Positions 44,230 through 64,000 are shown, numbered from the stretch's first letter. The stretch is 64,000 nucleotides of DNA from Candidatus Woesearchaeota archaeon (GCA_047603125.1 JBLKOU010000001.1:8171-72170), one strand, 5' to 3'. The notes: a model not told the origin generated them from the letters alone. A program made the numbers and translations.

Positions 44230-47200
44230 ATGGTCAGGAGTTTTCGATTATGTATGCACACGCAAGAAGAATTCACCATAGATAGGCAGCGCTATGATAG
44301 CGCAAATGAGGAGCGTTTACTCTATCGTGCAAAGGATGGGATTAGCGAGCAGCTTGTTAGAGAAATCTCAAAAAGCAAAAATGAGCCTGAGTGGATGCTT
44401 CAAAAGCGATTAAAGGGTTTTGAGCTGTTTTTAAAGATGGAAAATCCAACATGGGGGCCATCGCTTGAAAAATTAGATTTATCAAAAATTTCTTACTTTT
44501 TGCGTCCAGATGCAAAGAAAAATGCTACGAGTTGGGATGATGTCCCTGATGATATCAAAAATACATTTGATAAGCTGGGAATTCCAAAAGCAGAACGAGA
44601 AGCATTGGCTGGAGTTGGTGCACAATATGATTCTGAAACCGTGTATCATAATTTACAAAAAGAATTACAAGATCAAGGAGTGGTGTTTATTGATTGCGAT
44701 GAGGCTGTTCACAAATATCCTGATTTAGTAAAAAAATATTTTATGACAAGCTGTGTTCCTATGAATTTACATCGATATAGTGCGCTTCATGCTGCTGTTT
44801 GGTCGGGAGGGACATTTATTTATATTCCTAAGGGAGTCAAAGTAGAAAAGCCATTGCAAGCATACTTTCGTATGAATGCACGAAAAGGTGGGCAATTTGA
44901 GCATACGCTTATTATTGTTGATGAGGGTGCGGAGGTTTCTTATATTGAAGGGTGTTTTGGGGCAGGGACGCAGATAACGACAAATCCTGATTATAAGCCA
45001 ATTGAGCAAATTCGCTCAGGTGAAAAAATACTGACAAGCGAAGGAGAGTTTAAGCATTCAAAAGATATTCAAGCACAGCCATATACGGGTAAAATGGCAA
45101 AAATCCAACTCTGGGGTGATACGACGCAAACAATTAACGTGACGCAAGAACATCCATTTTTATATGTTGATAAAAAGCATGCTCGTGAGAAAAATAAGCA
45201 GTTTACTCCTCGCTGGAACATGCCAGCATATTTTCAAAAAGGAGATTATTTATGTATGCCGATTAATCAAGTTGTAAAACACAACGACGAACATACATTT
45301 GTGTATTTACGCCATATTGATGGGAAACGTGAACGCGTAGAATGGCCAGTTCAGGTGTCTGCAGAATTATTTCGGTTAATAGGGTACTATTTAGCACAAG
45401 GAAGTGTGAGTAGTAATGCGTATTTGAATTTTTCATTTCATTTTCAAGAGCGAGAGTATATTGAAGATGTGAAAAGATGTTTGAAAAAAGTATTTGGGAT
45501 AAAAAAAATACTGGAAATGCACCATAAAAAAAATAATGGGACGAGTTTAGTCGTTTGTTCTGTTGATTTGGCAAGAATCTTTAAAGAATTTGGAAAGAGC
45601 GCAAATACAAAATCATTGCCTGCATGGGTGATTTATGAAAAACCGCATCTACAAAAAGAACTGATTAAGGGCTGGTTTAGAGGGGATGGAAATTATTTTA
45701 AGAAAAAAACAGTTTCAGGGTTAAAAGAAGCAATACGAATAAATACGGTGAGTGAAAAATTGGCAAAACAGGCTCGTGATTTATTATTGCGTCAAGGCAT
45801 AGTTTCCTTTATTAATTCACAAGATCGTCAATCGACAAATAGACAAACTATGTATACTATAGGAATTGGCGGTGAATTTCTTCCCAAAATGGGGGAGCTT
45901 GTTGGAATTTCAATTTCAAAAACACTGAATGGGAAAAAGCGTGCGAGTATGTTCGGGATTGACAAGAAATTTGCATATATTCCTATACGTTCGATTACAT
46001 TTGAACAAGTAACAAATTATCCGGTATATAATTTTGGTGTGACTGATCATCAAACATTTACTGCTGGTGGCGTTGCCGTTCATAATTGCTCAGCTCCGGT
46101 ATACACTGAGAATTCGCTCCATGCAGGATGTGTAGAAATTCATGTCCTCAAAGGTGCAAGAGCAAGATATTCAAGTATTGAGAATTGGTCCAAAAATACG
46201 TATAATCTTAATACAAAGCGTGCCGTTGTTCATGATGATGGAATAATTGAATGGATTAACGGCAATTTAGGTTGCCTAACAGATTCATCAAAGGTATTTA
46301 CTAATCCCCGCGGTCCAAAAAATATATCTGCAATTTCACCGGGAGACAAAGTGCTCAGCTATGATTTTCAAGCAAAAAAAATTGTTCCTGGCACGGTTAA
46401 GCAAATGGTTTATAATGGGGATAGGGAGATTTTTGAAATAACGGCTGCAGGAAGAAGTTTAGAAGCAACTCAAAATCATCCTTTTTTAACATTAAGTAAG
46501 ACTCAAGATAATCCAAAAAAAAATTTTTATTCATATCAATGGAAACCATTGTCTCAGTTACAAGTGGGCGATATGATTTGTGTTACAAAAAACATTCCAA
46601 ACAAAGGCGAGTCTTTTCGTATACCTGCATTATCAGAATATTTACACGTTCAATCCAAAAATCAATATGCGTCTTTTTCCATGTCAACCAAACACCTCCA
46701 TAATTCGAAGATTACTATTCCAAAAAAGACCAATCCTGATTTGATGTGGCTATTAGGATTATTAATAGGGGATGGTTTTGTGGATGTTTCGCAAAATAAA
46801 ATTAATATTGCAACACATTATCTTGAAGATTATAGAGAATCGCAACTCATACGAATTCTTAAAGAGCAATTTAATTATACTGTAACTGAGAAAAAAGAAC
46901 GTTTTGTCATTATTAATTCGAAAAAACTTTGTGAATTATTTACAGTTCTTGGAGTATCGGGTACAGCAAAAACAAAACGTATACCTAATTGGGTTTATAC
47001 GCTTCCTGAAATTGAGATGGAGGCTTTTTTGGGAGGCTATTTTGATGCTGATGGACACGTACAAAAAAATGGTGCGTATTTAACAAGTTGTAATAAATCT
47101 TTATTAGAAGATTTTCGTTTATTGGCAATTCAATTAGGGTATGGTATTTCAAGAATATTTAAACATATGTCTGAGGGTACGAGAACAATTTTAGGGGTTG

Positions 47201-47997
47201 ATTGTATTGCTTCAGATAGTTTTCGATTGTTACTCAGTGGAGAAAAAATTTGTTCACTTGATTCGCGTTCGAAAAAGAAAAAGGCAAAGCTTTTACAAAT
47301 TACGTCAAAAAGAAATTTTCGAACAGCAAAGAATCAAAATTTCTCTTCAAAAACAACGGATGAAATTGGCTTTGCAAGAATTGATGCTATTATAAAAAAA
47401 GGTATACGTCCCACATTTGATATTGAGGTTGAAAAATATCACAATTTTATTGCTAATGGGCTGATTGTACATAATAGCGGAGTCACGATGCTCTACCCGG
47501 GTTCAATGTTGATGGGTGATCGTTCAAAATCTGATTTTATTGGTATTGCGCTAGCTAATAAAGATCAAAACCAAGATACTGGTTGTAAAATTATTCATAT
47601 CGGTGAGCAGACATCATCAACGATTACTTCCAAATCAATTAGTCTTAATGGCGGTATTTCAACATATCGTGGATTAGTGAGTATCCGAAAAGGTGCGAAA
47701 GGAGCAGCAACTAGTGTGGAGTGTGATGCGCTCATGATTGATAATGAGAGTCAATCAAATACATATCCGTATATGGATATTCATGAAAAAGATGTTGACG
47801 TTGCACATGAGGCTACTGTAGGAAAAATAAGTGAAGAGCAAATATTTTATTTAATGAGTCGTGGGTTGAGTGAAGAAGTTGCAAAGCAAATGATAGTTTC
47901 TGGTTTTATAGAACCAATTGTCAAAGAATTGCCACTTGAGTATGCAGTTGAATTAAATAAACTCATTGAATTAGAAATGGAGGGGAATTTAGGATGA
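44230..47997 (+). CDS. sufB: Fe-S cluster assembly protein SufB interrupted by two inteins
   Basis: Extein segments match SufB (DEGAEVSYIEG|CSAPVYTENSLHAG..., IEWINGNLG|SGVTMLYPGSMLMGD..., C-terminal SRGLSEEVAKQMIVSGF); 1255 aa = ~476 extein + 378 + 401 intein residues. Confidence 0.9.
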   Translation: MVRSFRLCMHTQEEFTIDRQRYDSANEERLLYRAKDGISEQLVREISKSKNEPEWMLQKRLKGFELFLKMENPTWGPSLEKLDLSKISYFLRPDAKKNATSWDDVPDDIKNTFDKLGIPKAEREALAGVGAQYDSETVYHNLQKELQDQGVVFIDCDEAVHKYPDLVKKYFMTSCVPMNLHRYSALHAAVWSGGTFIYIPKGVKVEKPLQAYFRMNARKGGQFEHTLIIVDEGAEVSYIEGCFGAGTQITTNPDYKPIEQIRSGEKILTSEGEFKHSKDIQAQPYTGKMAKIQLWGDTTQTINVTQEHPFLYVDKKHAREKNKQFTPRWNMPAYFQKGDYLCMPINQVVKHNDEHTFVYLRHIDGKRERVEWPVQVSAELFRLIGYYLAQGSVSSNAYLNFSFHFQEREYIEDVKRCLKKVFGIKKILEMHHKKNNGTSLVVCSVDLARIFKEFGKSANTKSLPAWVIYEKPHLQKELIKGWFRGDGNYFKKKTVSGLKEAIRINTVSEKLAKQARDLLLRQGIVSFINSQDRQSTNRQTMYTIGIGGEFLPKMGELVGISISKTLNGKKRASMFGIDKKFAYIPIRSITFEQVTNYPVYNFGVTDHQTFTAGGVAVHNCSAPVYTENSLHAGCVEIHVLKGARARYSSIENWSKNTYNLNTKRAVVHDDGIIEWINGNLGCLTDSSKVFTNPRGPKNISAISPGDKVLSYDFQAKKIVPGTVKQMVYNGDREIFEITAAGRSLEATQNHPFLTLSKTQDNPKKNFYSYQWKPLSQLQVGDMICVTKNIPNKGESFRIPALSEYLHVQSKNQYASFSMSTKHLHNSKITIPKKTNPDLMWLLGLLIGDGFVDVSQNKINIATHYLEDYRESQLIRILKEQFNYTVTEKKERFVIINSKKLCELFTVLGVSGTAKTKRIPNWVYTLPEIEMEAFLGGYFDADGHVQKNGAYLTSCNKSLLEDFRLLAIQLGYGISRIFKHMSEGTRTILGVDCIASDSFRLLLSGEKICSLDSRSKKKKAKLLQITSKRNFRTAKNQNFSSKTTDEIGFARIDAIIKKGIRPTFDIEVEKYHNFIANGLIVHNSGVTMLYPGSMLMGDRSKSDFIGIALANKDQNQDTGCKIIHIGEQTSSTITSKSISLNGGISTYRGLVSIRKGAKGAATSVECDALMIDNESQSNTYPYMDIHEKDVDVAHEATVGKISEEQIFYLMSRGLSEEVAKQMIVSGFIEPIVKELPLEYAVELNKLIELEMEGNLG
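44953..46086 (+). mobile_element. SufB intein 1 with LAGLIDADG homing-endonuclease domain
   Basis: Starts Cys (CFGAGTQ), ends HN before +1 Cys (CSAPVY); DOD motifs LIGYYLAQGSV and IKGWFRGDGNY. Confidence 0.85.
46273..47475 (+). mobile_element. SufB intein 2 with LAGLIDADG homing-endonuclease domain
   Basis: Starts Cys (CLTDSS), ends GLIVHN before +1 Ser (SGVTM); DOD motifs LLGLLIGDGFVD and FLGGYFDADGHV. Confidence 0.85.
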
Positions 47998-54349: not shown

Positions 54350-54904
54350 ATGTCAACAAAAGACAAGATACTTGCAACGGCATTTATGCTATTTGCAAGA
54401 CAGGGTTTTGAAGCAACAGGTGTGAATCAAATAGTCTCCAAAGCAAAAGTCACAAAGGGCGCGCTCTATCATCACTTTTCAAGTAAGGATGAGTTATTGT
54501 TGGCAGTCATAGATTATATTCAGGAAGCTGGACGTGAGCAGCTTCAATTTCAAGCAAAAAATAAAACTGATTTTAAAAAAAAGCTTTTGGATTTTTCTCA
54601 GACGCATCAAAATTTCATACGAAAGAATGCTGATTTATTGAATTTTAATTTGGAATTACTTATGCTTGCTAGAAAAAATGCTGATCTGAAAAAAACAATA
54701 TTGGCAAAAAGTGATGAAAGTTTACAAATCATTGTCAGCATTGTCGAACAAGGAAAGGCTTATGGGTACTTTTCCAATCAAGACCCAAAACTATTAGTAT
54801 TAAAAATTGTCATGATGTTAAAATCAATGGGAATCTTTTTTTCCATGGGTATTAAAGAAGATTATACGAGTGTTTGGAAATCGTTTGTGGGTGATGTGTT
54901 ATGA
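54350..54904 (+). CDS. TetR-family transcriptional regulator
   Basis: N-terminal HTH ILATAFMLFARQGFEATGVNQIVSKAKVTKGALYHHF. Confidence 0.8.
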   Translation: MSTKDKILATAFMLFARQGFEATGVNQIVSKAKVTKGALYHHFSSKDELLLAVIDYIQEAGREQLQFQAKNKTDFKKKLLDFSQTHQNFIRKNADLLNFNLELLMLARKNADLKKTILAKSDESLQIIVSIVEQGKAYGYFSNQDPKLLVLKIVMMLKSMGIFFSMGIKEDYTSVWKSFVGDVL

Positions 54905-55632
54905 CGGATGTCGTTATTGAATTAAAGGATGTGAAAAAAATATACAAAATGGGTAAAACCAAAGTCCATGCGCTTGACGGTGTAACATTACAAGTAAAAA
55001 AAGGAGAGTTTGTCTCTATTGTTGGAAAGTCGGGGAGTGGAAAATCGACGCTTGTTAATCAAGTAGGATGCCTTGATACGCCAACTACGGGAGAAGTATT
55101 GCTTTCTGGAAAAAATATTGCAAAATTACATGAAAGTCGACTTGCACAAATTCGTGGGAAAAAAATTGGTTTTATATTTCAAACATTTAATCTCATGCCG
55201 ACATTGAGCGTGTATGAAAATATTGCATTGCCAATGGCGTTTCAGGGAATAAGTGATAGTGCGATGGATAAAAATGTTAAAATGGCGCTTGAGCTTGTTG
55301 ATCTTCAAGACCGTGCGCACCATAAACCTGCGGAATTATCTGGTGGGCAGCGACAGAGAGTTGCAATTGCGCGTGCACTTGCAAATAATCCAGAAGTTAT
55401 TCTTGCAGATGAGCCAACTGGAAACCTCGATAGTAAAACGGGAAGACAGATAATGGAGTTTTTACTGCAACTACATGAGAAAAATAGTGTTACTATAATT
55501 ATGGTAACACATGATGACGATTTAGCCAAATGGGCACAGAGAACAGTAGTGCTTTCTGATGGTAAAATAATCAAAGAACTAAAACATACAAAGGCGGTGC
55601 GAACTGCCGCAATAAAAGCATATAGAGGTTGA
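54901..55632 (+). CDS. ABC transporter ATP-binding protein (MacB/LolD/FtsE type)
   Basis: Walker A GKSGSGKST, signature LSGGQRQRVAIARAL, Walker B ILADEPTGNLD. Confidence 0.9.
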   Translation: MTDVVIELKDVKKIYKMGKTKVHALDGVTLQVKKGEFVSIVGKSGSGKSTLVNQVGCLDTPTTGEVLLSGKNIAKLHESRLAQIRGKKIGFIFQTFNLMPTLSVYENIALPMAFQGISDSAMDKNVKMALELVDLQDRAHHKPAELSGGQRQRVAIARALANNPEVILADEPTGNLDSKTGRQIMEFLLQLHEKNSVTIIMVTHDDDLAKWAQRTVVLSDGKIIKELKHTKAVRTAAIKAYRG

Positions 55633-56867
55633 ACATGAAAAAAATATATACTGCAATAGTACTGATGTTAATGCTTCCCATAGTCGCATTTGCAACAGAT
55701 GATCAAACATTGCTTCGCGTTGAGTTTTTAAACCAACGACCTGATCCTGTAGAGCCAGGTTCATTTGTCGAGCTTCGATGGCGTGTCAATAATTTAGGGG
55801 GAGAATCAAAGAATTTTGTTTTTGAAATAGTCCCTTCTGATACATTTCGCATTAGTGAAGGAGAACGCCAGATTGAAAGAACAATTGGAGGGTTTGCAAG
55901 TAGCAATAATGCGGCAACGATATTTTATCGAGTAGCTGTAGATCAGGGTGCAACAGAAGGTGATAATAAAATTCGTCTGCGATACTATTCAAAAGATCAG
56001 CCCCATGTTGTGCGAGAAATTGAGCAAACAGTTCGCATTGAATCCCAGCAAGGATTAGTACAAATTGCAAATGTTCAAGTAGATCCTGCAAAAATAAAAA
56101 TTGGTGAAACATTTGAAGTTTCTTTAGATGTGAATAATTTAGGAACGCAGTTTTTAAATAATGTTCAACTTCGACTTATTACAGATAACACTGGTTTTGT
56201 TCCAATTGGTTCGTCCAATCAAAAAGTTATTCGTCAAATTCCCGGTCAAGGAGAAGGGTCATTTTCCTTTACATTTTTAGCAGACTCTTCGACACAGGTT
56301 CGAGCGTATACAATACCTGCGATTTTAACATATACGGATAACCTGGGTCGTGCTTATGAGCAGTCAACAAACATTGGTTTATCCATTGATGGAACACCAA
56401 AATACTTGACCAATATCGAGAGAAGTGAAATCATTACATCCGGTTCATCAGGAGAAATTGTTGTTTCTGTTTCTAATATAGGAAAGGGAAATATGAATTT
56501 TGTTGTGCTTGAACTCATGGATACGCAAGATTACACGGTGTTGACGCCACGTTCCTCAGCAAAAGATTATTTGGGAAATTTAGAAAGCGATGATTTTCAG
56601 ACATCTCAATACCAGATTCATGTAAAAAACACGGATAAAGAAGAAATTCCGCTTCGCTTTACTATGTATTATAATGATGCATATAATAAAGCCTATACTG
56701 ATCAATTTGAAATTCCGCTCCGTGTTTTCACACCAGATCAGGCACGTGAAGTTGGTTTGATTTCAAATGGTGGACCTGGATTTTTCACATACATTATACT
56801 CTTAGTCATTGTCGGTTTTGGAGTGTACTGGTATCGAAAGAAACGTCGTTTACAAGAAGAGGAGTAA
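55629..56867 (+). CDS. exported beta-rich protein with C-terminal TM anchor (DUF11/CARDB-like), ABC-associated
   Basis: Signal peptide, repetitive beta-strand pattern, C-terminal TM + RKKRR. Confidence 0.5.
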   Translation: MNMKKIYTAIVLMLMLPIVAFATDDQTLLRVEFLNQRPDPVEPGSFVELRWRVNNLGGESKNFVFEIVPSDTFRISEGERQIERTIGGFASSNNAATIFYRVAVDQGATEGDNKIRLRYYSKDQPHVVREIEQTVRIESQQGLVQIANVQVDPAKIKIGETFEVSLDVNNLGTQFLNNVQLRLITDNTGFVPIGSSNQKVIRQIPGQGEGSFSFTFLADSSTQVRAYTIPAILTYTDNLGRAYEQSTNIGLSIDGTPKYLTNIERSEIITSGSSGEIVVSVSNIGKGNMNFVVLELMDTQDYTVLTPRSSAKDYLGNLESDDFQTSQYQIHVKNTDKEEIPLRFTMYYNDAYNKAYTDQFEIPLRVFTPDQAREVGLISNGGPGFFTYIILLVIVGFGVYWYRKKRRLQEEE

Positions 56868-56881
56868 ACATATTTTTGTAA

Positions 56882-58099
56882 TTGACAATGATAAATCCTC
56901 GAGTATTCAAACTAGCAGTACATGCGATTCAATCGCGAAGTATACGTAGTTGGATTACTATTTTGGGAATCATTGTTTCAATTGCAGTTATTTTTATTTT
57001 ATTGACATTAACATCTGGTTTAACAGGTGCGATTGTTGAATTATTTGAAGATTTTGGAACAAATAGAATTTTTATTGCAAGTAGTGAAGCACAGATGGGT
57101 GACCCCAGTTCTCTCATGCGCTCTCGTCTTACTGATTCGTTGATTGATAGAATTGAACGAGAGCCCTATGTTGATGTAGCAATTGCCGGCAAGATGGACA
57201 TGACAATGGTGCGGTATAGAAATACCGATCGTTTTATTGCGCTATATGGATTGCCAAACACCAATGTGGATAAAGTCGCTCGCGCGTATGCATTTGATAG
57301 AGATCTTGACTCGGGAACATTTTGGAGAACCAATGAGCACAATGTCATTATTTTAGGATACAATGTTGCAAACAATCCTGACGATTATTTTGGTCGTGAA
57401 ATATTTTTACGAAATTCCATGACTATTGGGAATCAGTCCTTTCGAGTCATTGGTGTGTATAAACGCTTAGGAACGCCTGATGATGACTTAATTTATTTGC
57501 CGCTAGAAGATTTACGTCAACTAACTGGGGAGCAAGAACGCATAGATTTTATTGATGTGATTGTCAATCCGGGGTATGATATGCGTGTGGCAGAAGATCG
57601 GTTGACTCGTTTATTAGATCGACTTGTTGGTGAAGAAAATGTAATGATTATGACGCCAGAAGGAATACTTCGCCAGTTTGAGCAGATTCTTGGTATTGTG
57701 CAAGGGCTCTTATTGGCAATAGCATCAATTAGTTTATTGGTAGGTGCAATAGGTATTGCAAATACGATGTTTACGAGTGTTTTAGAGCGTGAAAAAGAAA
57801 TAGGCGTTCTCAAAGCTGTTGGTGCAAAAAATAGTGATATTTTGCAGTTGTTTATGTTTGAGAGTGGACTTATTGGACTTATAGGGGGCATTATTGGTGT
57901 GCTTATTGGAATCGGAGCATCGTACTTAATTGGTTTTATTGTCAGCTCCATTGGTTTTGAGTATTTACTCATCACTATATCGCCACTTTATGTGGCGTTT
58001 TGTTTATTGTTTGCATTTATTGTCGGAGCACTTTCGGGGTTTTTACCAAGTTATGTCGCATCCAGAAAAAAAATTGTGGACACATTGAGGGAACAATAA
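56882..58099 (+). CDS. ABC transporter permease, FtsX/MacB family
   Basis: TM1, large extracytoplasmic domain, three C-terminal TM with FtsX-family pattern. Confidence 0.8.
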   Translation: MTMINPRVFKLAVHAIQSRSIRSWITILGIIVSIAVIFILLTLTSGLTGAIVELFEDFGTNRIFIASSEAQMGDPSSLMRSRLTDSLIDRIEREPYVDVAIAGKMDMTMVRYRNTDRFIALYGLPNTNVDKVARAYAFDRDLDSGTFWRTNEHNVIILGYNVANNPDDYFGREIFLRNSMTIGNQSFRVIGVYKRLGTPDDDLIYLPLEDLRQLTGEQERIDFIDVIVNPGYDMRVAEDRLTRLLDRLVGEENVMIMTPEGILRQFEQILGIVQGLLLAIASISLLVGAIGIANTMFTSVLEREKEIGVLKAVGAKNSDILQLFMFESGLIGLIGGIIGVLIGIGASYLIGFIVSSIGFEYLLITISPLYVAFCLLFAFIVGALSGFLPSYVASRKKIVDTLREQ

Positions 58100-58100
58100 A

Positions 58101-59297
58101 ATGGTATTGCTTTCACTTATAATAAAACAGATGACGCAACGAAAATTGCGCTCAAGTTTAACAATTGTAGGAATTTTTATAGGAATTAGTGCCCTTGTCT
58201 CCCTTATTTTACTTGCGGGTGCACTTGAGCGTGGTGTTGGTGCACAATTGGATAGTTTTGGTGCGGATGTTATTTTAATAGCGCCTTTGACTGCGGTAGG
58301 AGGTGGTCCGCCATCGGGTATTGGTTCATTTACAACGACGGAAACTGAAATTGTTCGTTCTATTCCACAAGTTCTCTCCGTAAGTGAATTACTCAATGAA
58401 CGAGTCGATATGCGTTTAGGAAGAGAAGAGAAACGAAAACGTGTGCAAGGCGTTACACTTGGTTCTGGTAGGGATATACAAACCTTTGAAGAATTTATTC
58501 GCGTCGATGTTCGAGCAGGTCGGCATTTGCAACAAGGGGATACTCGATCATTAGTTGTTGGAGATAGATTTGCACGAGAATTTTTTGAAAAAGAATTATT
58601 TGTTGGAAGTTCTGTTCGAATTAATGAGCAACGGTTCACAATCATCGGTATTTTTGAACGTCAGGGAACACAGGATGTGGATAATGCTGTATATACGTCA
58701 ATTGAAGATATGCGAAATATTGTTGGAGATAATCGCGCACTCACAGCATTATCTGCACGCATTGCGCCAGGCGTTGATTTAGAGATTATGGAAGAGCGTA
58801 TAAAAACACGCTTAGAACGTGCTCGCGGTGTTGAAGATGTTGCAGTGACAACTGCGGCACAAATTCGTGAGCAAATTGGAAGCTTTTTGCTTGCAATAAA
58901 TATTGTTGTTATCAGTGTTGCACTCATTAGTTTATTTGTTGGCGCACTTGGCGTAACAAATTCATTATATACTTCAGTATTGCAACGAACACGCGAGATT
59001 GGAACGATGAAGGCGATTGGCGCAAAAAATTCACAAATTTTGAAAATTTTTGTTCTCGAATCTGCCTTTTTTGGACTTGTCGGAGGACTCATTGGTATTG
59101 CACTAGGGGTGTTACTTGCAGGAAGCTTTATGGCTATACTTAATACATTTGGCTTTATTCGTTTAACATTGGATATTGAATTAGAACTCCTTATTGGAGC
59201 ACTTATTTTTAGTGTGGGGTTGGGGATAGTGGCCGGATTTTTGCCGGCGTACCGGGCTTCTTTGCAAAAACCCGTGGATGCGCTTCGCTATGAGTGA
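58101..59297 (+). CDS. ABC transporter permease, FtsX/MacB family (second copy)
   Basis: Paralogue of the preceding gene, same architecture. Confidence 0.8.
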   Translation: MVLLSLIIKQMTQRKLRSSLTIVGIFIGISALVSLILLAGALERGVGAQLDSFGADVILIAPLTAVGGGPPSGIGSFTTTETEIVRSIPQVLSVSELLNERVDMRLGREEKRKRVQGVTLGSGRDIQTFEEFIRVDVRAGRHLQQGDTRSLVVGDRFAREFFEKELFVGSSVRINEQRFTIIGIFERQGTQDVDNAVYTSIEDMRNIVGDNRALTALSARIAPGVDLEIMEERIKTRLERARGVEDVAVTTAAQIREQIGSFLLAINIVVISVALISLFVGALGVTNSLYTSVLQRTREIGTMKAIGAKNSQILKIFVLESAFFGLVGGLIGIALGVLLAGSFMAILNTFGFIRLTLDIELELLIGALIFSVGLGIVAGFLPAYRASLQKPVDALRYE

Positions 59298-60003
59298 GGG
59301 GAATATTATTGTACTTGAGAATTTTTCGAATCTTAAAATCAAGCTCTTGTTTTTCTCCATCACTTAAGACTGCGTTTTTATTATAGAACTCAATTTTCAT
59401 TGGTTCATAGCGAAACGTTCTATCTTGAACAGCAAGTTCGCTGTGAATAGGGTCTGCTTTGGCGTTATACACAATACTTGGAAGCACATATTTTGGTGTT
59501 TGATAGAGTTTTGTAATGGCGCTGGTAATTGTTCGTAAAATAGGTGTCTTTTGAAATGATTCAGGAATATTTGGCTTTGCCGTTGAGCGCATTTTAATAG
59601 CGTATTGCATGAATTGTTGGTGGGCTCGAAAATCTGTTTGCGAGTGAAATGTATCAAACGTGGAGTGGGAGTGTCCAACGCCAGTGATTCGCTTTTTTTT
59701 CGACTGAAAATAATTGAGTGCTTCTTGGACTTGACTTGCTGGTATGTCATATGTTGTTGGTGTAATGGTTTGTTTGGTTGCAAGGTGTATGTCGTTAATG
59801 TCAATAATTGTTTGATGCCTTTTATGCGTTACATTTCCGCCATAAATGAATCCGACTTCTGTTTTTGCTTGTCCTAATTGATGAATACGAGTAGAAATAT
59901 ATTGAGACGCAAGATGAATTTTATAATCCATGCGAACAACCGGTGTATTGAGGTTGTTGAGTTGTTGTGCAAGTTCGTTTTCGGGTCTTTGTCTTAGTTC
60001 CAT
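59209..60003 (-). CDS. JAB/MPN (JAMM) metallopeptidase, deubiquitinase-like
   Basis: Complete JAMM motif E...GHSHSTFDTFHSQTD (HxHx7Sx2D); overlaps E1 gene by 10 nt; 3' end overlaps convergent FtsX gene by 89 nt. Confidence 0.75.
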   Translation of the reverse strand: MELRQRPENELAQQLNNLNTPVVRMDYKIHLASQYISTRIHQLGQAKTEVGFIYGGNVTHKRHQTIIDINDIHLATKQTITPTTYDIPASQVQEALNYFQSKKKRITGVGHSHSTFDTFHSQTDFRAHQQFMQYAIKMRSTAKPNIPESFQKTPILRTITSAITKLYQTPKYVLPSIVYNAKADPIHSELAVQDRTFRYEPMKIEFYNKNAVLSDGEKQELDFKIRKILKYNNIPLTHSEAHPRVFAKKPGTPAKIRPLSPTPH

Positions 60004-61274
60004 TTTGTATACCTGAGTTTTCTTTTTTCAAAGGGTGTGTACGAGAACATGAATTCTGGTGTGATGGGGTTATTTGTTGTCGTTCGTTGCCTAGCAAGAA
60101 GTGTCATTGCTGCACCTATGAACATGTTTGGAATAATAACGGACGGATTGACTTGTCTTGCACAGCTTTGCGTTCTTTGTTGTCTTCGGGGCTGATCTTT
60201 GTGCAAATGGAGTTTTCTTTGCTCACTTAATGTCGGAGTTTTATTTGGAAGATACGATGTGATCATTCCGACAGTTGTATTACATGAACCTTCGATAAGA
60301 GGAATGGAGTACGTGCTTGCAAGCTCGCTTGCAATTTTTCTTGAAGCGACAGTATCAGTGCAGCAAAATATGAGGTCGAAGTTTGAAAAGTCTCCAAAAT
60401 TACTTTTCGTGAGTTTTGCTTGAACGGGCGTGATATTTGACAGCTCTTGTGCGAGTGCTTGTACTTTTGGTTTGCCGACATGGCGCGTGTATAAAATTTG
60501 TCTGTTGAGGTTACTCTCTTCAACTTTATCAAAATCAATAACGGTGATTTTTGAGCGCGTATCTCTTGAAAGCGAAGCGGCACAATAGGTTCCAATTCCT
60601 CCTGCACCGATGATAAGAACATTTCCTAGGTCTTTTGCAAGTCTTGTGCAGCTATGGCCATCAAAGAGTTGTGCATAAGGGTTAAACGAAATACTGTGTC
60701 CTTGTTGTAGGTGGTATTCGTTTTGAAATGGAATGTTTTTTTTGCGAATTTCATCAAGAACAGTCGCGCCCATACAATACTGCACTGCTAAGTCGGGCGG
60801 AGTTAATTGATGGCTCATTGTTTGTAAATATTGTGCACTTGGTGAATTTTTTTCTAAGAATCGCATGCGTGTTTGATGTCCGTTTTGTGTGAGTATAAAC
60901 GATTCTTTTCTTCCAAAGTCTTGATATGCGTGAACATGATCCTGGCAAATAATGTGTCGTTTTGTTTGAAAATATGAAGCAAGTTCAGGAAATGGTTTAG
61001 TTCGCATGACATTGACGGTATTTGTTGCGTCATAGTCTTGGAGTATGGCGTGAAAACTTTGCGCATTACTTTTTTTTTCTTTTTTTGAAAATCCAGGGAC
61101 GGGAAAAATATCATTTTCATCATTGTCATAGACGTGAATATTTTGTACACCTAGGCCGATGAGTCCCTGCGTAATAACTTGGGTGAGTTCTGTGATTGGG
61201 TAGAGGGCAACTGATTCTTGTTCAATGCGCGCATACTCTTGTTTGAAAGCCTCGGCGTTAGCAGCTGTTCTCAT
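59994..61274 (-). CDS. E1-like ubiquitin-activating enzyme (ThiF/MoeB fold) with ~200-aa N-terminal extension
   Basis: Rossmann/ATP loop VLIIGAGGIGTY...VIDFDKVEESNLNRQ; candidate catalytic Cys in DLIFCCTDTVASR. Confidence 0.8.
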   Translation of the reverse strand: MRTAANAEAFKQEYARIEQESVALYPITELTQVITQGLIGLGVQNIHVYDNDENDIFPVPGFSKKEKKSNAQSFHAILQDYDATNTVNVMRTKPFPELASYFQTKRHIICQDHVHAYQDFGRKESFILTQNGHQTRMRFLEKNSPSAQYLQTMSHQLTPPDLAVQYCMGATVLDEIRKKNIPFQNEYHLQQGHSISFNPYAQLFDGHSCTRLAKDLGNVLIIGAGGIGTYCAASLSRDTRSKITVIDFDKVEESNLNRQILYTRHVGKPKVQALAQELSNITPVQAKLTKSNFGDFSNFDLIFCCTDTVASRKIASELASTYSIPLIEGSCNTTVGMITSYLPNKTPTLSEQRKLHLHKDQPRRQQRTQSCARQVNPSVIIPNMFIGAAMTLLARQRTTTNNPITPEFMFSYTPFEKRKLRYTKWN

Positions 61275-62158
61275 GCTATCACCCGTGATGTAAGTTCTCG
61301 CATTCTTTGCGCTGTTGGAACAGTTGGGTGAGGTGGATTTTTCAAAACCATACGTGCATGCTCAAGAGTAATTTTTACTTGTTCACTTCGATCTCGATTT
61401 TCTAATGAATATCGTTTTTCTTTTACAAAACCTGAAATTTGAAAACGTCTATCTCCGTTGTAACAAATATCTCCGTTTTCAAAAACATAAAAATGCTCAT
61501 AGGGAATATTTTTCACATAGGGGTATTTGAGAAGGGTAATTTCTTTGTTTTGTTCATTAATGGAGAAATCTGCTTGAATATGTGCTGGCGCAAATTGATA
61601 GGTTCGGTTTTTGTAGCGCATGCGAATGGGTTCAGTTACATAGCTAATGGATAAGAGTGTATTTTGTGCTTGTGCAGTTTTTTTTATTTGGTATGGTGAA
61701 TTATTTGCGTTTGTTGCAGGTTGTCGCATAGGTTGTGTAAGTCCTTTGAAAAAGCGTTGACCATTAATGTGTAAATCGTATGAGAGTAGCGCTGAATGAA
61801 AATTGGTGATTGTTCTATTGTATAGAAGAACGGGTCGTTCGTGAAATGTTTTTTGTTTGATTTGTCTGGCGGTGGTTAATTGTTCGATGAGTTGATCGAC
61901 ACAGGACTGTTTTGTTGAGAGTCTAGTGAAAAACTCTGCAGTTTCACTTTTTTCTAAATTCCAAAATTTTTCTTTTGAAGTTTTGTAGTGATTTGGTTGT
62001 CTGTTCTTTTGTGAGGGTCGTAAAATATATGCGTCATTTTCAAAAAAAAGAATGGGAGTAGATTCAAAGGGAATCATACGCTCCTCCAAACGAACTGACT
62101 GAATATCGCAAATCAACGTGTTTGTAGTTTTCTCCATCCAGTTGTAGATGTTCAACAA
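61271..62158 (-). CDS. E2-like (UBC-fold) ubiquitin-conjugating enzyme homologue with N-terminal extension
   Basis: KYPYVKNIPYEHFYVFENGDICYNGD aligns to the UBC active-site region YPFKPPKVxFxTKIYHPNIxxNGxICLDIL; downstream NPPHP resembles the UBC PNPxxP; start may be ATG 62077. Confidence 0.5.
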   Translation of the reverse strand: MLNIYNWMEKTTNTLICDIQSVRLEERMIPFESTPILFFENDAYILRPSQKNRQPNHYKTSKEKFWNLEKSETAEFFTRLSTKQSCVDQLIEQLTTARQIKQKTFHERPVLLYNRTITNFHSALLSYDLHINGQRFFKGLTQPMRQPATNANNSPYQIKKTAQAQNTLLSISYVTEPIRMRYKNRTYQFAPAHIQADFSINEQNKEITLLKYPYVKNIPYEHFYVFENGDICYNGDRRFQISGFVKEKRYSLENRDRSEQVKITLEHARMVLKNPPHPTVPTAQRMRELTSRVIA

Positions 62159-62585
62159 GACTGCCTAGGTGATTGCTAACTTTGTCTTCAAGGCGCATTT
62201 CTAAGTTGTAATTGCCATCTGACTTTCCAAAAAGTTTGACATCGGGAACTTGTACTTCATTGCGATAAGTACCTGCAATTTCTCTTTGACTGGGTGTGTA
62301 TTCTGCGTTATGCTCGTTTGCATTTGGGTCGAGAATCCTCTCAACCAGGTCTTTAAAGGTGTAGTTTGGTTTGATATCAACAAAACGGTAAATACCTTCA
62401 TGTTCGAGTTCTTCTCCACTGGGAAGTATCATTGTCGCAAGGTCATCTGGATTACCCCGCGAGAGTCGTGCGAGTATGGGTTGGGCCATATACTTGCTAT
62501 TGCCGGATGGCTCTAATAATTTTAGAACGATTTCTTGAAAGATTTTCTGGTTTTTTTGTTCACGTTCTCGACGGGGGCAAAGCAA
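62064..62585 (-). CDS. candidate tandem ubiquitin-like (ISG15-like) protein precursor with C-terminal GG plus 5-residue tail
   Basis: Ends ...KHVDLRYSVSSFGG-AYDSL (compare Ub ...LHLVLRLRGG); second half has a beta-grasp-like beta-beta-alpha pattern; likely start ATG 62489. Confidence 0.35.
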   Translation of the reverse strand: MLCPRREREQKNQKIFQEIVLKLLEPSGNSKYMAQPILARLSRGNPDDLATMILPSGEELEHEGIYRFVDIKPNYTFKDLVERILDPNANEHNAEYTPSQREIAGTYRNEVQVPDVKLFGKSDGNYNLEMRLEDKVSNHLGSLVEHLQLDGENYKHVDLRYSVSSFGGAYDSL

Positions 62586-62623
62586 AACATTTATATACTT
62601 AAAAGCCGGTTTTTTTTTCTAGA

Positions 62624-64000
62624 ATGTTTTCACGGGGTCAGGTAGCTGTTTTTGTAATAGTGGGTGTGGTAGTGTTGTTGCTCGCATCGGTGTATTTTAT
62701 GTACCAATCTGCCCTTGATGTTGGTGATTCTGAGGTTTCTCGAACGGTTTCTGAAGTTGTGCCTGATGAGTTTATTCGCGTTCGTGAGTTTGTTCAGCAA
62801 TGTTTAAATGATATTGGTCTACGTGGTCTTGAAAAAGCAGCGTCCCAAGGCGGATATATTTATCCTGAGCGGTTTGGTATACAGGCGCAGCATTTTGCTC
62901 CGACCACTTCAAATGCATTTACGCTTGCCCAGGGTTCTAATCCTGTTCCGTATTGGTATTACTTGGCAACGCCTAATGATTGTTCGGGTAATTGTATTTT
63001 TTTATCAGAGCAACCATATTTGCGTGGGCCTGAGCCTGATAGTATACAATCCCAGTTAAATTCCTACGTCCGTGAAGAGTTGCCGTTTTGTATTCGTGGT
63101 TTTACTGCGCTTGGTGATGAGGGTTTTACTGTTGAAGTGCTTGGGGACTTTGAAGTTTTTACATATTTTCATGATCAAAATGTTCAATTCTTTTTAGAGT
63201 ATCCTCTTGAAGTGACTTTTCAAGAATCGACATCCCGTGTGAGTGAGTATCAAGTGTATGTGGATGTTCCATTCATGCGTTTGTATGAGTTGGCTGCGAT
63301 GCTTACTGGTTTGCAATCTGAATTTCGGTATTTAGAACACACAACTATGGAGTTAATTTCTTTGTATAGTGGGTTAGATAGAAATAAACTTCCGCCGACA
63401 AGCGGGAGTACATATGAGTATGTTGCCGCACTGTTTTGGCCAGTTACGCAAGTAGAGTTTATGCTTCGTGATATTTTGCAAACATATGTCAGTGCGGTGC
63501 AAGTGCAAGGGGTTTCTAATTATATGGATCGTACTGAGCAGTTTATGCACCTCGATGGTCCGCAGAGTCGTGTGCTTGCAATTCAGCGTTTGTATGAAAA
63601 ATTTGATTTGCCTTTGGGTGTGATTCCCTATGATGGGCCAGTTACTGTTCCTCAAAATTTAATTGAACGGTATGGCGAGGAGTTAGCTGAGACGATTGTT
63701 CGAAGTACACAGCGGGCAGAACCAAATCCTGATTTTGTTCAACGTTTTGGTCGTTTTGAAGTGTATCACTCATATAGTGGTCAACAAATGTATTTTAATG
63801 TTAATGATGATGGCGGTTTGATAAAGCCAAATTCGCTCTCCGTTGATTTTTTTGGTCTCTTACCGTTTGGTTTTCAACAATACGATGTGTTGTATGATGT
63901 TGCATACCCAGTACTTGTTGAAGTATATGATCCTGACGCACTTGGTGGACAAGGGTTTACGTTTGCATTTGGTTTAGAGACAAATGTCGAGAATAATGAG
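62624..64000 (+). CDS. exported/membrane-anchored protein, 3'-partial (runs off window), not in ORF track
   Basis: ATG 62624, N-terminal TM (VAVFVIVGVVVLLLASVYF), >458 codons open to nt 64000; G+T-rich codon usage distinct from neighbours. Confidence 0.6.
   Translation, partial: MFSRGQVAVFVIVGVVVLLLASVYFMYQSALDVGDSEVSRTVSEVVPDEFIRVREFVQQCLNDIGLRGLEKAASQGGYIYPERFGIQAQHFAPTTSNAFTLAQGSNPVPYWYYLATPNDCSGNCIFLSEQPYLRGPEPDSIQSQLNSYVREELPFCIRGFTALGDEGFTVEVLGDFEVFTYFHDQNVQFFLEYPLEVTFQESTSRVSEYQVYVDVPFMRLYELAAMLTGLQSEFRYLEHTTMELISLYSGLDRNKLPPTSGSTYEYVAALFWPVTQVEFMLRDILQTYVSAVQVQGVSNYMDRTEQFMHLDGPQSRVLAIQRLYEKFDLPLGVIPYDGPVTVPQNLIERYGEELAETIVRSTQRAEPNPDFVQRFGRFEVYHSYSGQQMYFNVNDDGGLIKPNSLSVDFFGLLPFGFQQYDVLYDVAYPVLVEVYDPDALGGQGFTFAFGLETNVENNE

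What the first reader, a model, noticed from the sequence alone, without database searches (positions are those of the whole stretch)
59209..62585. Four-gene ubiquitin-like conjugation cassette (JAMM peptidase, E1, E2, candidate tandem Ubl with GG-tail) in an archaeal genome
Four tightly overlapping minus-strand genes form this cassette. The first encodes a JAB/MPN protein with a perfect HxHx7Sx2D JAMM motif. The second is a ThiF-fold E1 with GAGGIGT and an FCC Cys loop. The third has a recognisable UBC active-site region (YP-x3-P...F...NGxIC, then NPPHP) behind an N-terminal extension. The fourth is a ~140-170-aa protein ending in FGG followed by a pentapeptide, as Ubl precursors do before processing. 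This content (Ubl, E2, JAB, E1) matches the bacterial Bil and Bub type ubiquitination-like antiviral operons and the E1-E2-JAB operons predicted from comparative genomics. It is distinct from archaeal SAMP/UbaA systems, which lack an E2. Such a cassette in a small archaeal genome, next to a gene of atypical composition, suggests a horizontally acquired defence or regulatory conjugation system that may be undescribed in this lineage.
Basis: partly seen in the sequence, partly recalled or inferred. Interest (0 to 1): 0.85.

Follow-up and report, generated by a model that had tools for sequence, protein, structure and literature searches.

The report
Rare archaeal ubiquitin-like conjugation gene cassette
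A tiny symbiont-type archaeon carries a compact four-gene set that looks like a stripped-down ubiquitin-tagging machine (tag precursor, candidate carrier enzyme, activating enzyme, trimming protease), but two of the four proteins resemble nothing known, so the tagging function is well motivated and still unproven.

Summary
An exhaustive HMMER scan of 1.84 billion proteins found only two relatives of the second protein. Both lie in the same four-gene order in other metagenomic lineages, one also archaeal.

- **Firm:** an active ThiF-type E1 whose invariant Cys371 aligns with UBA5 Cys250; a JAMM peptidase with invariant E, HxH, S and D; a small protein ending in an invariant GG plus a variable 2-5-residue tail.
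- **Suggestive:** the E1 N-terminal half is a degenerate adenylation domain. The 268-aa protein has one invariant Cys in a 15-residue UBC-like motif.
- **Not shown:** a UBC fold or a beta-grasp fold. Both AlphaFold models failed, and no profile or PDB search hit.
- **Not supported:** "tandem Ubl", the "FCC" catalytic loop, atypical composition, a defence island, Bil/Bub membership.

Best reading (about 0.6): a Ubl-E2-E1-DUB conjugation module of a new, very rare, fast-evolving archaeal family. Main rival: a JAMM-processed sulfur-carrier system. Biological role unknown.

The parts
62064..62489 (-). Gene 1: 141-aa small protein (NCBI MFT4311679.1, 'hypothetical'), the candidate Ubl precursor. 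The invariant Gly135-Gly136 codons are at 62087-62082. They are followed by the tail AYDSL (62081-62067) and the stop codon.
   Evidence: The homologues in L034 and L036 end ...LGGG-RA and ...YYGG-RNAR, and G135/G136 are invariant. No family or PDB hit. AF2 pLDDT was 36.
61271..62077 (-). Gene 2: 268-aa Cys-bearing protein (MFT4311678.1, 'hypothetical'), the candidate E2. The conserved core is roughly aa 155-265. Invariant residues are Y185, P186, P192, Y193, H195 (61495-61493), V198, C205 (61465-61463), R211 and F212. Its ATG lies inside the tail codons of gene 1, and the GGAGGA that encodes the Gly-Gly pair doubles as a Shine-Dalgarno-like site 5 nt upstream.
   Evidence: Motif-level UBC match. 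No profile or PDB hit. AF2 pLDDT was 34.7.
60660..61274 (-). Gene 3, N-terminal half (E1 aa 1-205): probably a degenerate (inactive) adenylation domain. It keeps an LxGLGVxxI..D.D-like alpha1-beta2 motif but has lost the GxGGxG loop.
   Evidence: hhalign gives a colinear 87-column match to a ThiF profile (P=0.0035, probability 9%). None of 150 column shuffles reached that score. No Pfam or PDB hit on its own.
59994..60659 (-). Gene 3, C-terminal half (E1 aa 206-426; whole protein MFT4311677.1, 'HesA/MoeB/ThiF family'): the active adenylation domain. It carries G223-AGGIG-228 (60608-60591), NLNRQ with R258, FCCTD with D307 (60356-60354), and a short crossover loop with invariant Cys371 (60164-60162).
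   Evidence: ThiF at E=1.2e-34. Invariant columns. Cys371 aligns with the catalytic Cys250 of UBA5. Residues verified.
59209..60003 (-). Gene 4: 264-aa JAMM/MPN+ metallopeptidase (MFT4311676.1, 'hypothetical'). It has E49 (59859-59857) and the motif H111-x-H113-x7-S121-x2-D124 (59673-59632), plus a conserved C-terminal extension. The last ~30 aa are not conserved and overlap the convergent ABC permease gene by 89 nt.
   Evidence: All three family members hit Pfam Prok-JAB below threshold (best E=0.0081). The best PDB match is weak (E=0.2-0.3): the Caldiarchaeum Rpn11-like protein 6fjv, across the JAMM motif.
62490..62623 (.). 134-bp divergent intergenic region with A/T-rich TATA-like boxes. 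GTATATAAATGTTT lies about 95-110 nt upstream of the gene 1 ATG, and AAAATTATTA lies at about -33 to -24. This probably serves as a shared promoter region.
   Evidence: Read directly from the sequence. A near-identical GTATATAAATATTT box occurs in the equivalent L034 intergenic region. Function not tested.
62624..64000 (+). Divergently transcribed neighbour, possibly linked to the cassette. It is a large protein (>=458 aa, running off the window) with an N-terminal RGQ+hydrophobic segment (pilin-like signal or TM). It matches no known family.
   Evidence: Its homologue (35% identity over 425 aa, E=7e-74) occupies the same divergent position next to the cassette in L034. It is not seen within the 312 bp available upstream of the cassette in L036.

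Best explanation
This is a self-contained ubiquitin-like protein conjugation module of a previously unclassified, very rare archaeal family. The steps below mark what is shown and what is inferred.

1. The 141-aa precursor is trimmed after Gly136 by the JAMM peptidase, which removes AYDSL. This is inferred from the invariant GG, the variable tails and the co-inherited JAMM gene.
2. The E1 adenylates Gly136 in its C-terminal active adenylation domain. All ATP/Mg-binding residues are present, which is shown at sequence level. The E1 then forms a thioester on Cys371 in a short UBA5/MoeB-type crossover loop. The alignment is shown; the chemistry is inferred.
3. The E1 N-terminal half is a degenerate adenylation domain that probably replaces the second subunit of a ThiF dimer, as in BilD and eukaryotic E1s. 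Support is weak to moderate.
4. The tag passes to Cys205 of the 268-aa protein, which acts as an E2 and possibly as a target selector, because no E3 is encoded. This is inferred.
5. The tag ends on target lysines, and the JAMM enzyme can reverse the modification. This is inferred.

The biological role is unknown. Rarity and fast divergence fit an accessory or conflict system, but nothing in the context shows defence.
For: - **Conserved order.** The order small protein / Cys protein / ThiF E1 / JAMM is conserved in three lineages that share only 22-40% identity.
- **Coupling.** The genes are translationally coupled, and the E2-like/E1 ATGA overlap occurs in all three lineages.
- **GG terminus.** The C-terminal GG is invariant and the tails are variable: AYDSL, RA or GRA, and RNAR.
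- **E1.** ThiF at E=1.2e-34, with invariant GxGGxG, NLNRQ, CTD and Cys371, which aligns with UBA5 Cys250.
- **E1 N-terminal half.** Colinear match to the Rossmann part of a ThiF profile, above all 150 shuffles.
- **JAMM.** Residues invariant, and 3 of 3 members hit Prok-JAB below threshold.
- **Gene 2.** Only two Cys residues, one of them invariant (C205), with an invariant His 10 residues upstream, the same spacing as H75-C85 of UbcH5. hhalign's single best local alignment to a UBC profile lands exactly there (P=0.0099), and none of 200 shuffles reach it.
- **Precedent.** JAMM pre-processing of a Ubl, and E1 to E2 transfer without an E3, are shown in Bil operons.
Against: - No significant match of gene 2 to any E2 model (Pfam UQ_con/Prok-E2, NCBIfam, PADLOC) or to any solved E2. 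hhalign probability is only 2-4%.
- No similarity of gene 1 to ubiquitin, ThiS or MoaD; the score is at noise level.
- Both AlphaFold models are unusable (pLDDT 36 and 35), so neither the UBC fold nor the beta-grasp fold has been seen.
- E1 + JAMM + a GG-tailed carrier also occurs in sulfur-carrier pathways that have no conjugation role.
- Only three lineages are known, so conservation statistics are thin.
Confidence: 0.6

Rival explanations
1. This is a JAMM-processed sulfur-carrier system of the CysO/Mec+/MoeZ or QbsE/QbsD/QbsC type (known from the literature; my own knowledge). The small GG protein would be adenylated and thiocarboxylated by the E1. The 268-aa Cys protein would be a sulfurtransferase or the enzyme that consumes the thiocarboxylate. 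No protein conjugation would occur.
For: - An E1, a JAMM peptidase and a GG+tail carrier are all that such systems need, and those are the only three securely identified parts here.
- The E1's closest named families are ThiF, MoeB and Uba4 as well as UBA5.
- SufBDSC and MnmA lie 6-15 kb away in the window.
- The E2 identity of gene 2 is unproven.
Against: - The E1 carries no rhodanese domain.
- No biosynthetic partner (CysM, ThiG or MoaE type) sits in or beside the cassette in any of the three lineages.
- The sulfur genes in the window belong to other operons and are absent near the cassette in L034 and L039.
- The carrier is 136 aa, about twice the size of ThiS, MoaD or CysO.
- The cassette proteins diverge much faster (22-40% identity) than housekeeping proteins of the same two genomes (DnaG 66%, SOD 62%).
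- The family is extremely sporadic.
- The gene 2 motif resembles a UBC active site.
Confidence: 0.2
2. This is a peptide or protein C-terminal modification pathway of the MccB/PaaA type (RiPP-like). The E1 would adenylate the C-terminus of the 141-aa protein for an intramolecular or small-molecule reaction. Its N-terminal half would act as a substrate clamp. Gene 2 and the JAMM peptidase would be tailoring and maturation enzymes.
For: MccB and PaaA are among the E1's PDB matches (E=2.6e-16 and 1.5e-14). The E1 has a large extra N-terminal domain.
Against: - The N-terminal half aligns colinearly with a ThiF Rossmann domain rather than a peptide clamp.
- The substrate is a 136-aa protein with a conserved GG, not a short peptide.
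- No exporter or immunity gene is conserved with the cassette. The adjacent ABC genes are convergent, belong to a TetR operon in the window only, and are absent in L034 and L039.
Confidence: 0.07
3. The defence sub-hypothesis of the first reader: the cassette is an antiviral Bil-like system that tags virion proteins.
For: - Gene content parallels BilABCD, which is antiviral.
- The family is very sporadic and fast-evolving.
- It moves as a unit relative to housekeeping genes between two related genomes.
Against: - There are no defence genes nearby. The neighbours are Suf, MnmA, peroxiredoxin, VKOR, a TetR/ABC exporter and a surface protein.
- No PADLOC hit beyond the generic adenylation domain.
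- No CapW/CapH/CapP-type regulator.
- Composition is normal.
- No sequence-level relationship to Bil proteins could be shown.
Confidence: 0.25

Closest known systems
Bacterial Bil (BilABCD) operons, Type I/II (Iyer-Burroughs-Aravind class 6d; Millman 2022; Chambers/Corbett; PMC10557695, PMC11601596)
   Same: - Four separate genes encode a Ubl, an E2, a JAMM peptidase and an E1, with no E3.
- The Ubl precursor has residues after the reactive Gly, and the JAMM enzyme removes them.
[quoted passage not shown]
   Different: - Gene order is Ubl-E2-E1-JAB rather than Ubl-E2-JAB-E1.
- The E1 has no ~80-aa helical CYS domain. The window has a ~28-aa crossover loop with the Cys placed as in UBA5/MoeB.
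- There is no conserved four-Cys zinc site.
- The Ubl and E2 show no detectable sequence similarity to any library or PDB entry.
- The host is archaeal (DPANN), and there is no defence context.
UBA5-UFC1-UFM1 (eukaryotic non-canonical E1/E2)
   Same: UBA5 is the best solved-structure match of the E1 (E=3e-18), and the catalytic Cys lies in the adenylation-domain crossover loop. The partner E2 lacks a canonical HPN motif (my own knowledge for UFC1).
   Different: UBA5 is a homodimer without an IAD. No similarity of gene 1 or gene 2 to UFM1 or UFC1 was detected. UFM1 is processed by Cys proteases, not by JAMM.
Caldiarchaeum subterraneum / Asgard eukaryote-like Ub-E1-E2-RING-Rpn11 operons (PMC3082918, PMC5654768)
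   Same: An archaeal operon that combines a modifier, an E1, an E2-like protein and a JAMM/Rpn11-like peptidase. The Caldiarchaeum Rpn11-like protein is the nearest, though weak, PDB match of the JAMM protein.
   Different: Those systems have readily recognisable ubiquitin and UBC domains and a RING E3. Here there is no Pfam ubiquitin or UQ_con hit and no RING gene.
Archaeal SAMP/UbaA/HvJAMM1 sampylation
   Same: An archaeal ThiF-type E1, a GG-ended small modifier and a JAMM desampylase. NCBIfam gives a weak desampylase hit at E=0.0084.
   Different: SAMP systems have no E2, their genes are usually dispersed, and the E1 is a ~270-aa single-domain enzyme. The UbaA model scores 51.7 bits against a cutoff of 450. 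A canonical UbaA/MoeB-like E1 from another Woesearchaeota MAG (L031) looks quite different.
Bub operons (class 6e/DUF6527; PMC11601596)
   Same: A Ubl, E2, E1 and peptidase theme. BubCD appears among the E1's PDB matches (E=2.3e-13).
   Different: Bub uses Ubl-E2 or E2-E1 fusions and a DUF6527 serine protease. It works through oxyester intermediates and lacks catalytic Cys residues. Here all genes are separate, Cys is invariant in both the E1 and gene 2, and there is no DUF6527.

Membership tests
E1 / ThiF-MoeB-UBA adenylating enzymes | Significant match to the ThiF adenylation domain, with the nucleotide-binding GxGxxG, the Arg of NLNRQ and the Mg-binding Asp | tested here: met
   PF00899 at E=1.2e-34. 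G223-G228, R258 and D307 are invariant in three lineages.
E1 / ThiF-MoeB-UBA adenylating enzymes | Catalytic Cys in or after the crossover loop | tested here: met
   Invariant Cys371 (SCxR..NPS) aligns with Cys250 of UBA5 in the HMMER alignment.
E2 / UBC superfamily | Significant sequence-profile match to a UBC or prokaryotic E2 family | tested here: not met
   No Pfam, NCBIfam, PADLOC or PHROG hit at E<=1 for any of three members. No PDB hit at E<=10 with profiles A1 and A11.
E2 / UBC superfamily | Invariant catalytic Cys in a G-x-[IV]-C context downstream of a YP...P segment, with His or Asn about 8-10 residues upstream | tested here: met
   Y185, P186, P192, H195 and C205 are invariant. hhalign aligns H195/C205 with H75/C85 of UbcH5 (P=0.0099), and 0 of 200 shuffles reach that score. 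The canonical HPN triad itself is absent.
E2 / UBC superfamily | UBC alpha/beta fold | tested here: inconclusive
   AF2 with a 3-sequence MSA gave pLDDT 34.7, and Foldseek hits were noise. The low-confidence model shows a beta-meander followed by C-terminal helices, which proves nothing.
Ubiquitin-like beta-grasp modifiers | Beta-grasp fold or profile match to ubiquitin, ThiS, MoaD or similar | tested here: inconclusive
   No Pfam or PDB hit. hhalign against Ub/NEDD8/ThiS/MoaD is at noise level. AF2 pLDDT was 36.
Ubiquitin-like beta-grasp modifiers | Conserved C-terminal Gly-Gly, exposed directly or after removal of a short tail | tested here: met
   G135 and G136 are invariant, and the tails are AYDSL, RA and RNAR.
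JAMM/MPN+ metallopeptidases | The E ... HxH-x7-S-x2-D zinc site within an MPN domain | tested here: met
   E49, H111, H113, S121 and D124 are invariant. Prok-JAB is hit by 3 of 3 members, though below the gathering score (best E=0.0081).
Bil (BilABCD) operons | Separate Ubl, E2, JAMM and E1 genes in one operon | tested here: met
   The gene content matches, with the caveat that E2 and Ubl are candidates only. The order differs.
Bil (BilABCD) operons | E1 with IAD-AAD plus an inserted ~80-aa helical CYS domain and a four-Cys Zn site | tested here: not met
   An IAD is likely. However, the crossover loop is about 28 aa in the window, the Cys sits as in UBA5, and no conserved CxxC pairs are present.
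Bil (BilABCD) operons | Sequence homology of the Ubl, E2 and JAB proteins to BilA, BilB and BilC | not testable with these tools
   No Bil sequences or profiles could be obtained; the paper supplements are not held. Indirectly, no PDB chain of any E2 or Ubl was hit.
Bub operons | Ubl-E2 or E2-E1 fusions, a DUF6527 serine protease, and no catalytic Cys | tested here: not met
   All genes are separate, there is no DUF6527 hit, and invariant Cys residues are present.
SAMP/UbaA sampylation | UbaA-type E1 (NCBIfam NF047750) and no E2 | tested here: not met
   The score is 51.7 bits against a cutoff of 450. An extra conserved Cys protein is present in the operon.
JAMM-dependent sulfur-carrier systems (CysO/Mec+, QbsCDE) | An adjacent thiocarboxylate-using biosynthetic enzyme and/or a rhodanese domain on the E1 | tested here: not met
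   No rhodanese or biosynthetic gene lies in or beside the cassette in any of the three lineages.

The most novel reading that the evidence does not exclude
DPANN archaea carry an independent, minimal and complete ubiquitination-type machine. Its E2 and modifier have diverged beyond recognition from all known UBC and beta-grasp families, or have a different fold. Its E1 combines a eukaryote/Bil-like IAD-AAD pseudo-dimer with a UBA5-like in-loop cysteine. It is genetically linked to a large pilin-signal surface protein, which suggests tagging connected to cell-surface, host-contact or virus-conflict biology.
Probability: 0.3. Interest if true: 0.8.

Novelty: new variant of a known kind. Interest (0 to 1): 0.6.

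Why it matters
Ubl-E2-E1-DUB operons are central to the debate over where ubiquitination arose. Archaeal examples are so far limited to eukaryote-like systems (Caldiarchaeum, Asgard) and to the E2-less SAMP pathway.

A fourth type would widen the known sequence space of E2s and Ubls. In this one the E2 and Ubl are invisible to every current profile, the E1 architecture is hybrid, and the hosts are genome-reduced DPANN archaea. That would imply that profile-based censuses undercount such systems. It would also offer a very small four-protein system for mechanistic work.

If instead gene 2 is not an E2, the cassette would define a new partner enzyme for a JAMM-processed carrier protein.

Tried and rejected
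- **Structure prediction.** AlphaFold2 on the small protein alone gave pLDDT 36. On gene 2 with the only available 3-sequence alignment it gave pLDDT 34.7. Both are unusable, and Foldseek on the latter returned noise.
- **Indexed homology search.** Searches with gene 2, gene 1 and the gene 2 profile returned only self or P0005.
- **GTDB genome scan with the E1.** It found only generic MoeB/ThiF cores. L002 and L031 were inspected and are ordinary UbaA/MoeB loci.
- **Other collections.**
  - The metagenome scan with the JAMM profile found only further contigs of the P0004 lineage.
  - Three IMG/VR scans found no cassette relatives.
  - tblastn of gene 2 against phages found none.
  - tblastn of the E1 against plasmids found only ThiF/MoeB genes in unrelated contexts.
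- **Spurious hits.** P0003 (2262 aa, repetitive) from the HMMER scan was rejected as low-complexity. P0004's Pfam 'ATPTG10-like' hit is sub-threshold and unrelated.
- **Unsupported features.**
  - P0004's C-terminal 'FGG' was considered as a possible fusion signal, but it is not conserved.
  - The 'tandem Ubl' has no internal repeat.
  - The 'FCC' catalytic loop was reassigned.
  - Compositional anomaly was rejected.
- **Bil/Bub sequences.** The paper supplements are not held, so these sequences could not be obtained.
- **Timed-out run.** A first shuffle control timed out and was rerun successfully.

Full report
**1. What is in the sequence**

Four consecutive minus-strand ORFs occupy window 59209-62585. 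Reading the DNA and comparing with database entries gives the real gene starts.
- The small gene starts at the ATG at 62489 and encodes 141 aa, not 173.
- The second gene starts at the ATG at 62077 and encodes 268 aa, not 295.
- Both lengths equal the products deposited for a Candidatus Woesearchaeota MAG. NCBI annotates three as 'hypothetical' and the E1 as 'HesA/MoeB/ThiF family': MFT4311679, -78, -77 and -76.

The genes are tightly coupled.
- Gene 2's ATG lies inside the five tail codons of gene 1, a 14-nt overlap. The GGAGGA that encodes the Gly-Gly pair sits 5 nt upstream, like a Shine-Dalgarno site.
- Genes 2 and 3 overlap by ATGA.
- Genes 3 and 4 overlap by 10 nt.

No ORF lies upstream on the same strand. 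A divergent plus-strand gene starts at 62624, and the 3' end converges on an ABC permease gene.

The window is archaeal: it encodes topoisomerase VI subunit B, RLI/ABCE1 and an archaeal-type DnaG.

**2. What the library searches say**

- **Gene 3 (E1).** It is a ThiF-type adenylating enzyme: PF00899 at E=1.2e-34 over aa 218-377. NCBIfam matches to ThiF, MoeB and UbaA are all far below their cutoffs. PADLOC matches are confined to the adenylation core of CBASS E1-E2 models.
- **Gene 4 (JAMM).** It gives only a sub-threshold Prok-JAB hit at E=0.015.
- **Genes 1 and 2.** They hit nothing in Pfam, NCBIfam, PADLOC, PHROGs or PDB sequences, either as single sequences or as profiles.

**3. Relatives and conserved synteny**

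The indexed search of 5.8 billion proteins returned only the query for genes 1 and 2. An exhaustive HMMER scan of 1.84 billion cluster representatives with gene 2 found two true relatives, P0004 (391 aa) and P0005 (292 aa), plus one repetitive false positive.

Both relatives sit in the same four-gene arrangement.

| Lineage | Small protein | Gene 2 homologue | ThiF E1 | JAMM |
|---|---|---|---|---|
| Window | 141 aa | 268 aa | 426 aa | 264 aa |
| L034 | 145 aa | 292 aa | 425 aa | 282 aa |
| L035-L039 | 148 aa | 391 aa | 460 aa | ~311 aa |

The gene 2/E1 ATGA overlap is kept in all three lineages. Pairwise identities across the cassette are only 22-40%.

L034 is labelled 'Acidobacteriota', but it carries an archaeal DnaG (NF003108, 474 bits) that is 66% identical to the window's DnaG, and an SOD that is 62% identical. 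It is therefore a related archaeon.
- The cassette proteins evolve much faster than housekeeping proteins of the same two genomes.
- In L034 the cassette abuts the DnaG-PPIase-SOD block, which lies about 45 kb away in the window. The cassette has therefore kept its integrity through rearrangement.

No relatives were found in IMG/VR, phage or plasmid collections or among GTDB species representatives.

**4. Conserved residues**

- **Small protein.** It has an invariant C-terminal G135-G136 followed by AYDSL, RA or RNAR, and a conserved N-terminal P-I-L-x-x-[LI]-[ST]-R-x-x-x-D segment.
- **E1.** Invariant features are GxGGxGTYC, NLNRQ, the FCCTD motif and S-C371-x-R-x-x-N-P-S.
  - The Asp of FCCTD corresponds to the Mg-binding Asp of MoeB 'DCTDN' (my own knowledge).
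  - In the HMMER alignment to UBA5, the best PDB match at E=3e-18, C371 pairs with the catalytic Cys250 in 'EGVCAAS'.
  - The crossover loop is short, about 28 aa in the window. No four-Cys zinc site is conserved, unlike BilD.
- **E1 N-terminal ~205 aa.** This half has no hits on its own.
  - hhalign aligns it colinearly over 87 columns, from beta1 to the 'CTD' position, with a ThiF profile: P=0.0035, probability 9%.
  - That score exceeds all 150 column-shuffled controls, which had mean 11.4 and maximum 22.7 against the observed 26.5.
  - The domain keeps a GLGVxxI..D.D alpha1-beta2 motif but lacks the glycine loop.
  - I read it as a probable inactive adenylation domain.
- **JAMM protein.** E49, H111, H113, S121 and D124 are invariant, and all three members independently hit Prok-JAB.
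- **Gene 2.** It has only two cysteines.
  - C205 is invariant within Y185-P186-x5-P192-Y193-x-H195-x2-V198-x6-C205-x5-R211-F212.
  - 'NPPHP' is not conserved.

**5. Is gene 2 an E2, and is gene 1 a Ubl?**

Both structure predictions failed, with pLDDT 36 and 34.7, and fold search was uninformative.

hhalign's only alignment is YEHFYVFENGDICYN against IYHPNINSNGSICLD. It places H195 on H75 and C205 on C85 (P=0.0099, probability 2-4%). None of 200 column-shuffled UBC profiles reached that score: mean 12.0, maximum 18.0, observed 21.5. This is motif-level support and does not demonstrate homology.

For gene 1, comparison with Ub, NEDD8, ThiS and MoaD is at noise level; 28 of 150 shuffles equal or exceed it. 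There is no internal repeat. With 136 mature residues, a tandem beta-grasp is unsupported.

The Ubl and E2 labels therefore rest on three things: operon logic, the GG terminus, and the invariant Cys motif.

**6. Context**

The neighbours are housekeeping genes:
- an intein-containing SufB, then SufD, SufS and SufC;
- a NUDIX protein and MnmA;
- peroxiredoxin and VKOR;
- a TetR-ABC-CARDB-MacB-like exporter operon.

GC content is 0.394 for the cassette and 0.371 for the window, with no step in the profile. No defence genes or defence-associated regulators were seen.

The one recurrent neighbour is the divergent large protein with an RGQ-hydrophobic N-terminus. It is 35% identical over 425 aa to the protein in the same position in L034. 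In the third lineage the 312 bp available upstream of the cassette are non-coding.

**7. Interpretation**

The most economical model is a Ubl conjugation cascade.
1. The JAMM peptidase trims after Gly136.
2. The E1 adenylates Gly136 and forms a Cys371 thioester.
3. The modifier transfers to Cys205 of gene 2.
4. It is conjugated to targets without an E3, and JAMM reverses the modification.

This parallels what was shown biochemically for BilABCD.

The cassette works like Bil but is not a demonstrable member:
- the gene order differs;
- the E1 lacks the CYS domain and the zinc site;
- no sequence relationship of the Ubl or E2 could be shown.

It is not Bub, which uses fusions, DUF6527 and oxyester chemistry. 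It is not SAMP/UbaA. It is not the eukaryote-like Caldiarchaeum type, since there are no ubiquitin or UQ_con hits and no RING gene.

The main rival is a JAMM-processed sulfur-carrier pathway. It needs only the three secure components. Several points argue against it:
- no rhodanese domain or biosynthetic partner in any lineage;
- the size of the carrier;
- the fast divergence;
- the UBC-like motif.

The defence reading remains speculative. Rarity and fast evolution fit it, but the context does not.

**8. Verdict**

The conjugation interpretation is the best available, at about 0.6.

I rate it a new variant of a known kind, with interest 0.6.

Noticed in passing
window 62624-64000 (+) and L034 5552-7783 (-): A large protein of unknown family, with a pilin-like RGQ+hydrophobic N-terminus, is divergently adjacent to the cassette in two archaeal lineages (35% identity over 425 aa, E=7e-74). 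L034 has two more large no-Pfam secreted or TM proteins behind it. It may be functionally linked to the cassette.
   Followed up: partly
L034 (GCA_035299465.1, DATGWN010000067.1): The contig is labelled 'Acidobacteriota bacterium', but it encodes an archaeal-type DnaG (NF003108, 474 bits) that is 66% identical to the window's DnaG, and it shares other genes with this Woesearchaeota window. The MAG label or the binning is probably wrong.
   Followed up: partly
window 44230-47997 (+): SufB is 1255 aa long and interrupted by intein sequence (Intein_splicing, Hint and LAGLIDADG homing-endonuclease domains). SufD, SufS and SufC follow it.
   Followed up: no
window 59209-59297: The JAMM gene and the convergent MacB-like ABC permease gene (58101-59297) overlap by 89 nt at their 3' ends. 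The overlapping ~30 aa of the JAMM C-terminus are not conserved in homologues.
   Followed up: partly
window 62583-62601 and L034 ~7820-7835: A nearly identical GTATATAAAT(G/A)TTT TATA-like box occurs in the divergent intergenic region upstream of the cassette in both archaeal lineages.
   Followed up: no
window 54350-59297 (+): A TetR regulator, an ABC ATPase, a CARDB-domain protein and two MacB-like permeases form an exporter operon directly downstream of, and convergent with, the cassette. The arrangement is not conserved in L034 or L039.
   Followed up: partly
window 4604-7051 (+) and 26239-27888 (+): The window encodes both gyrase subunit A (NF004043, 1184 bits) and topoisomerase VI subunit B.
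   Followed up: no
window 36921-40274 (+): A 1117-aa subtilisin/S8-family protease gives a weak partial similarity to the anti-phage peptidase IteS model (41.6 bits against a cutoff of 900), so it is probably a generic S8 protease.
   Followed up: no
P0004 (L035-L037), C-terminus: The gene 2 homologue of the third lineage is 391 aa and itself ends ...LFGG-SLRI, which resembles a GG+tail terminus. This is not conserved in the other two lineages and may be coincidence.
   Followed up: partly
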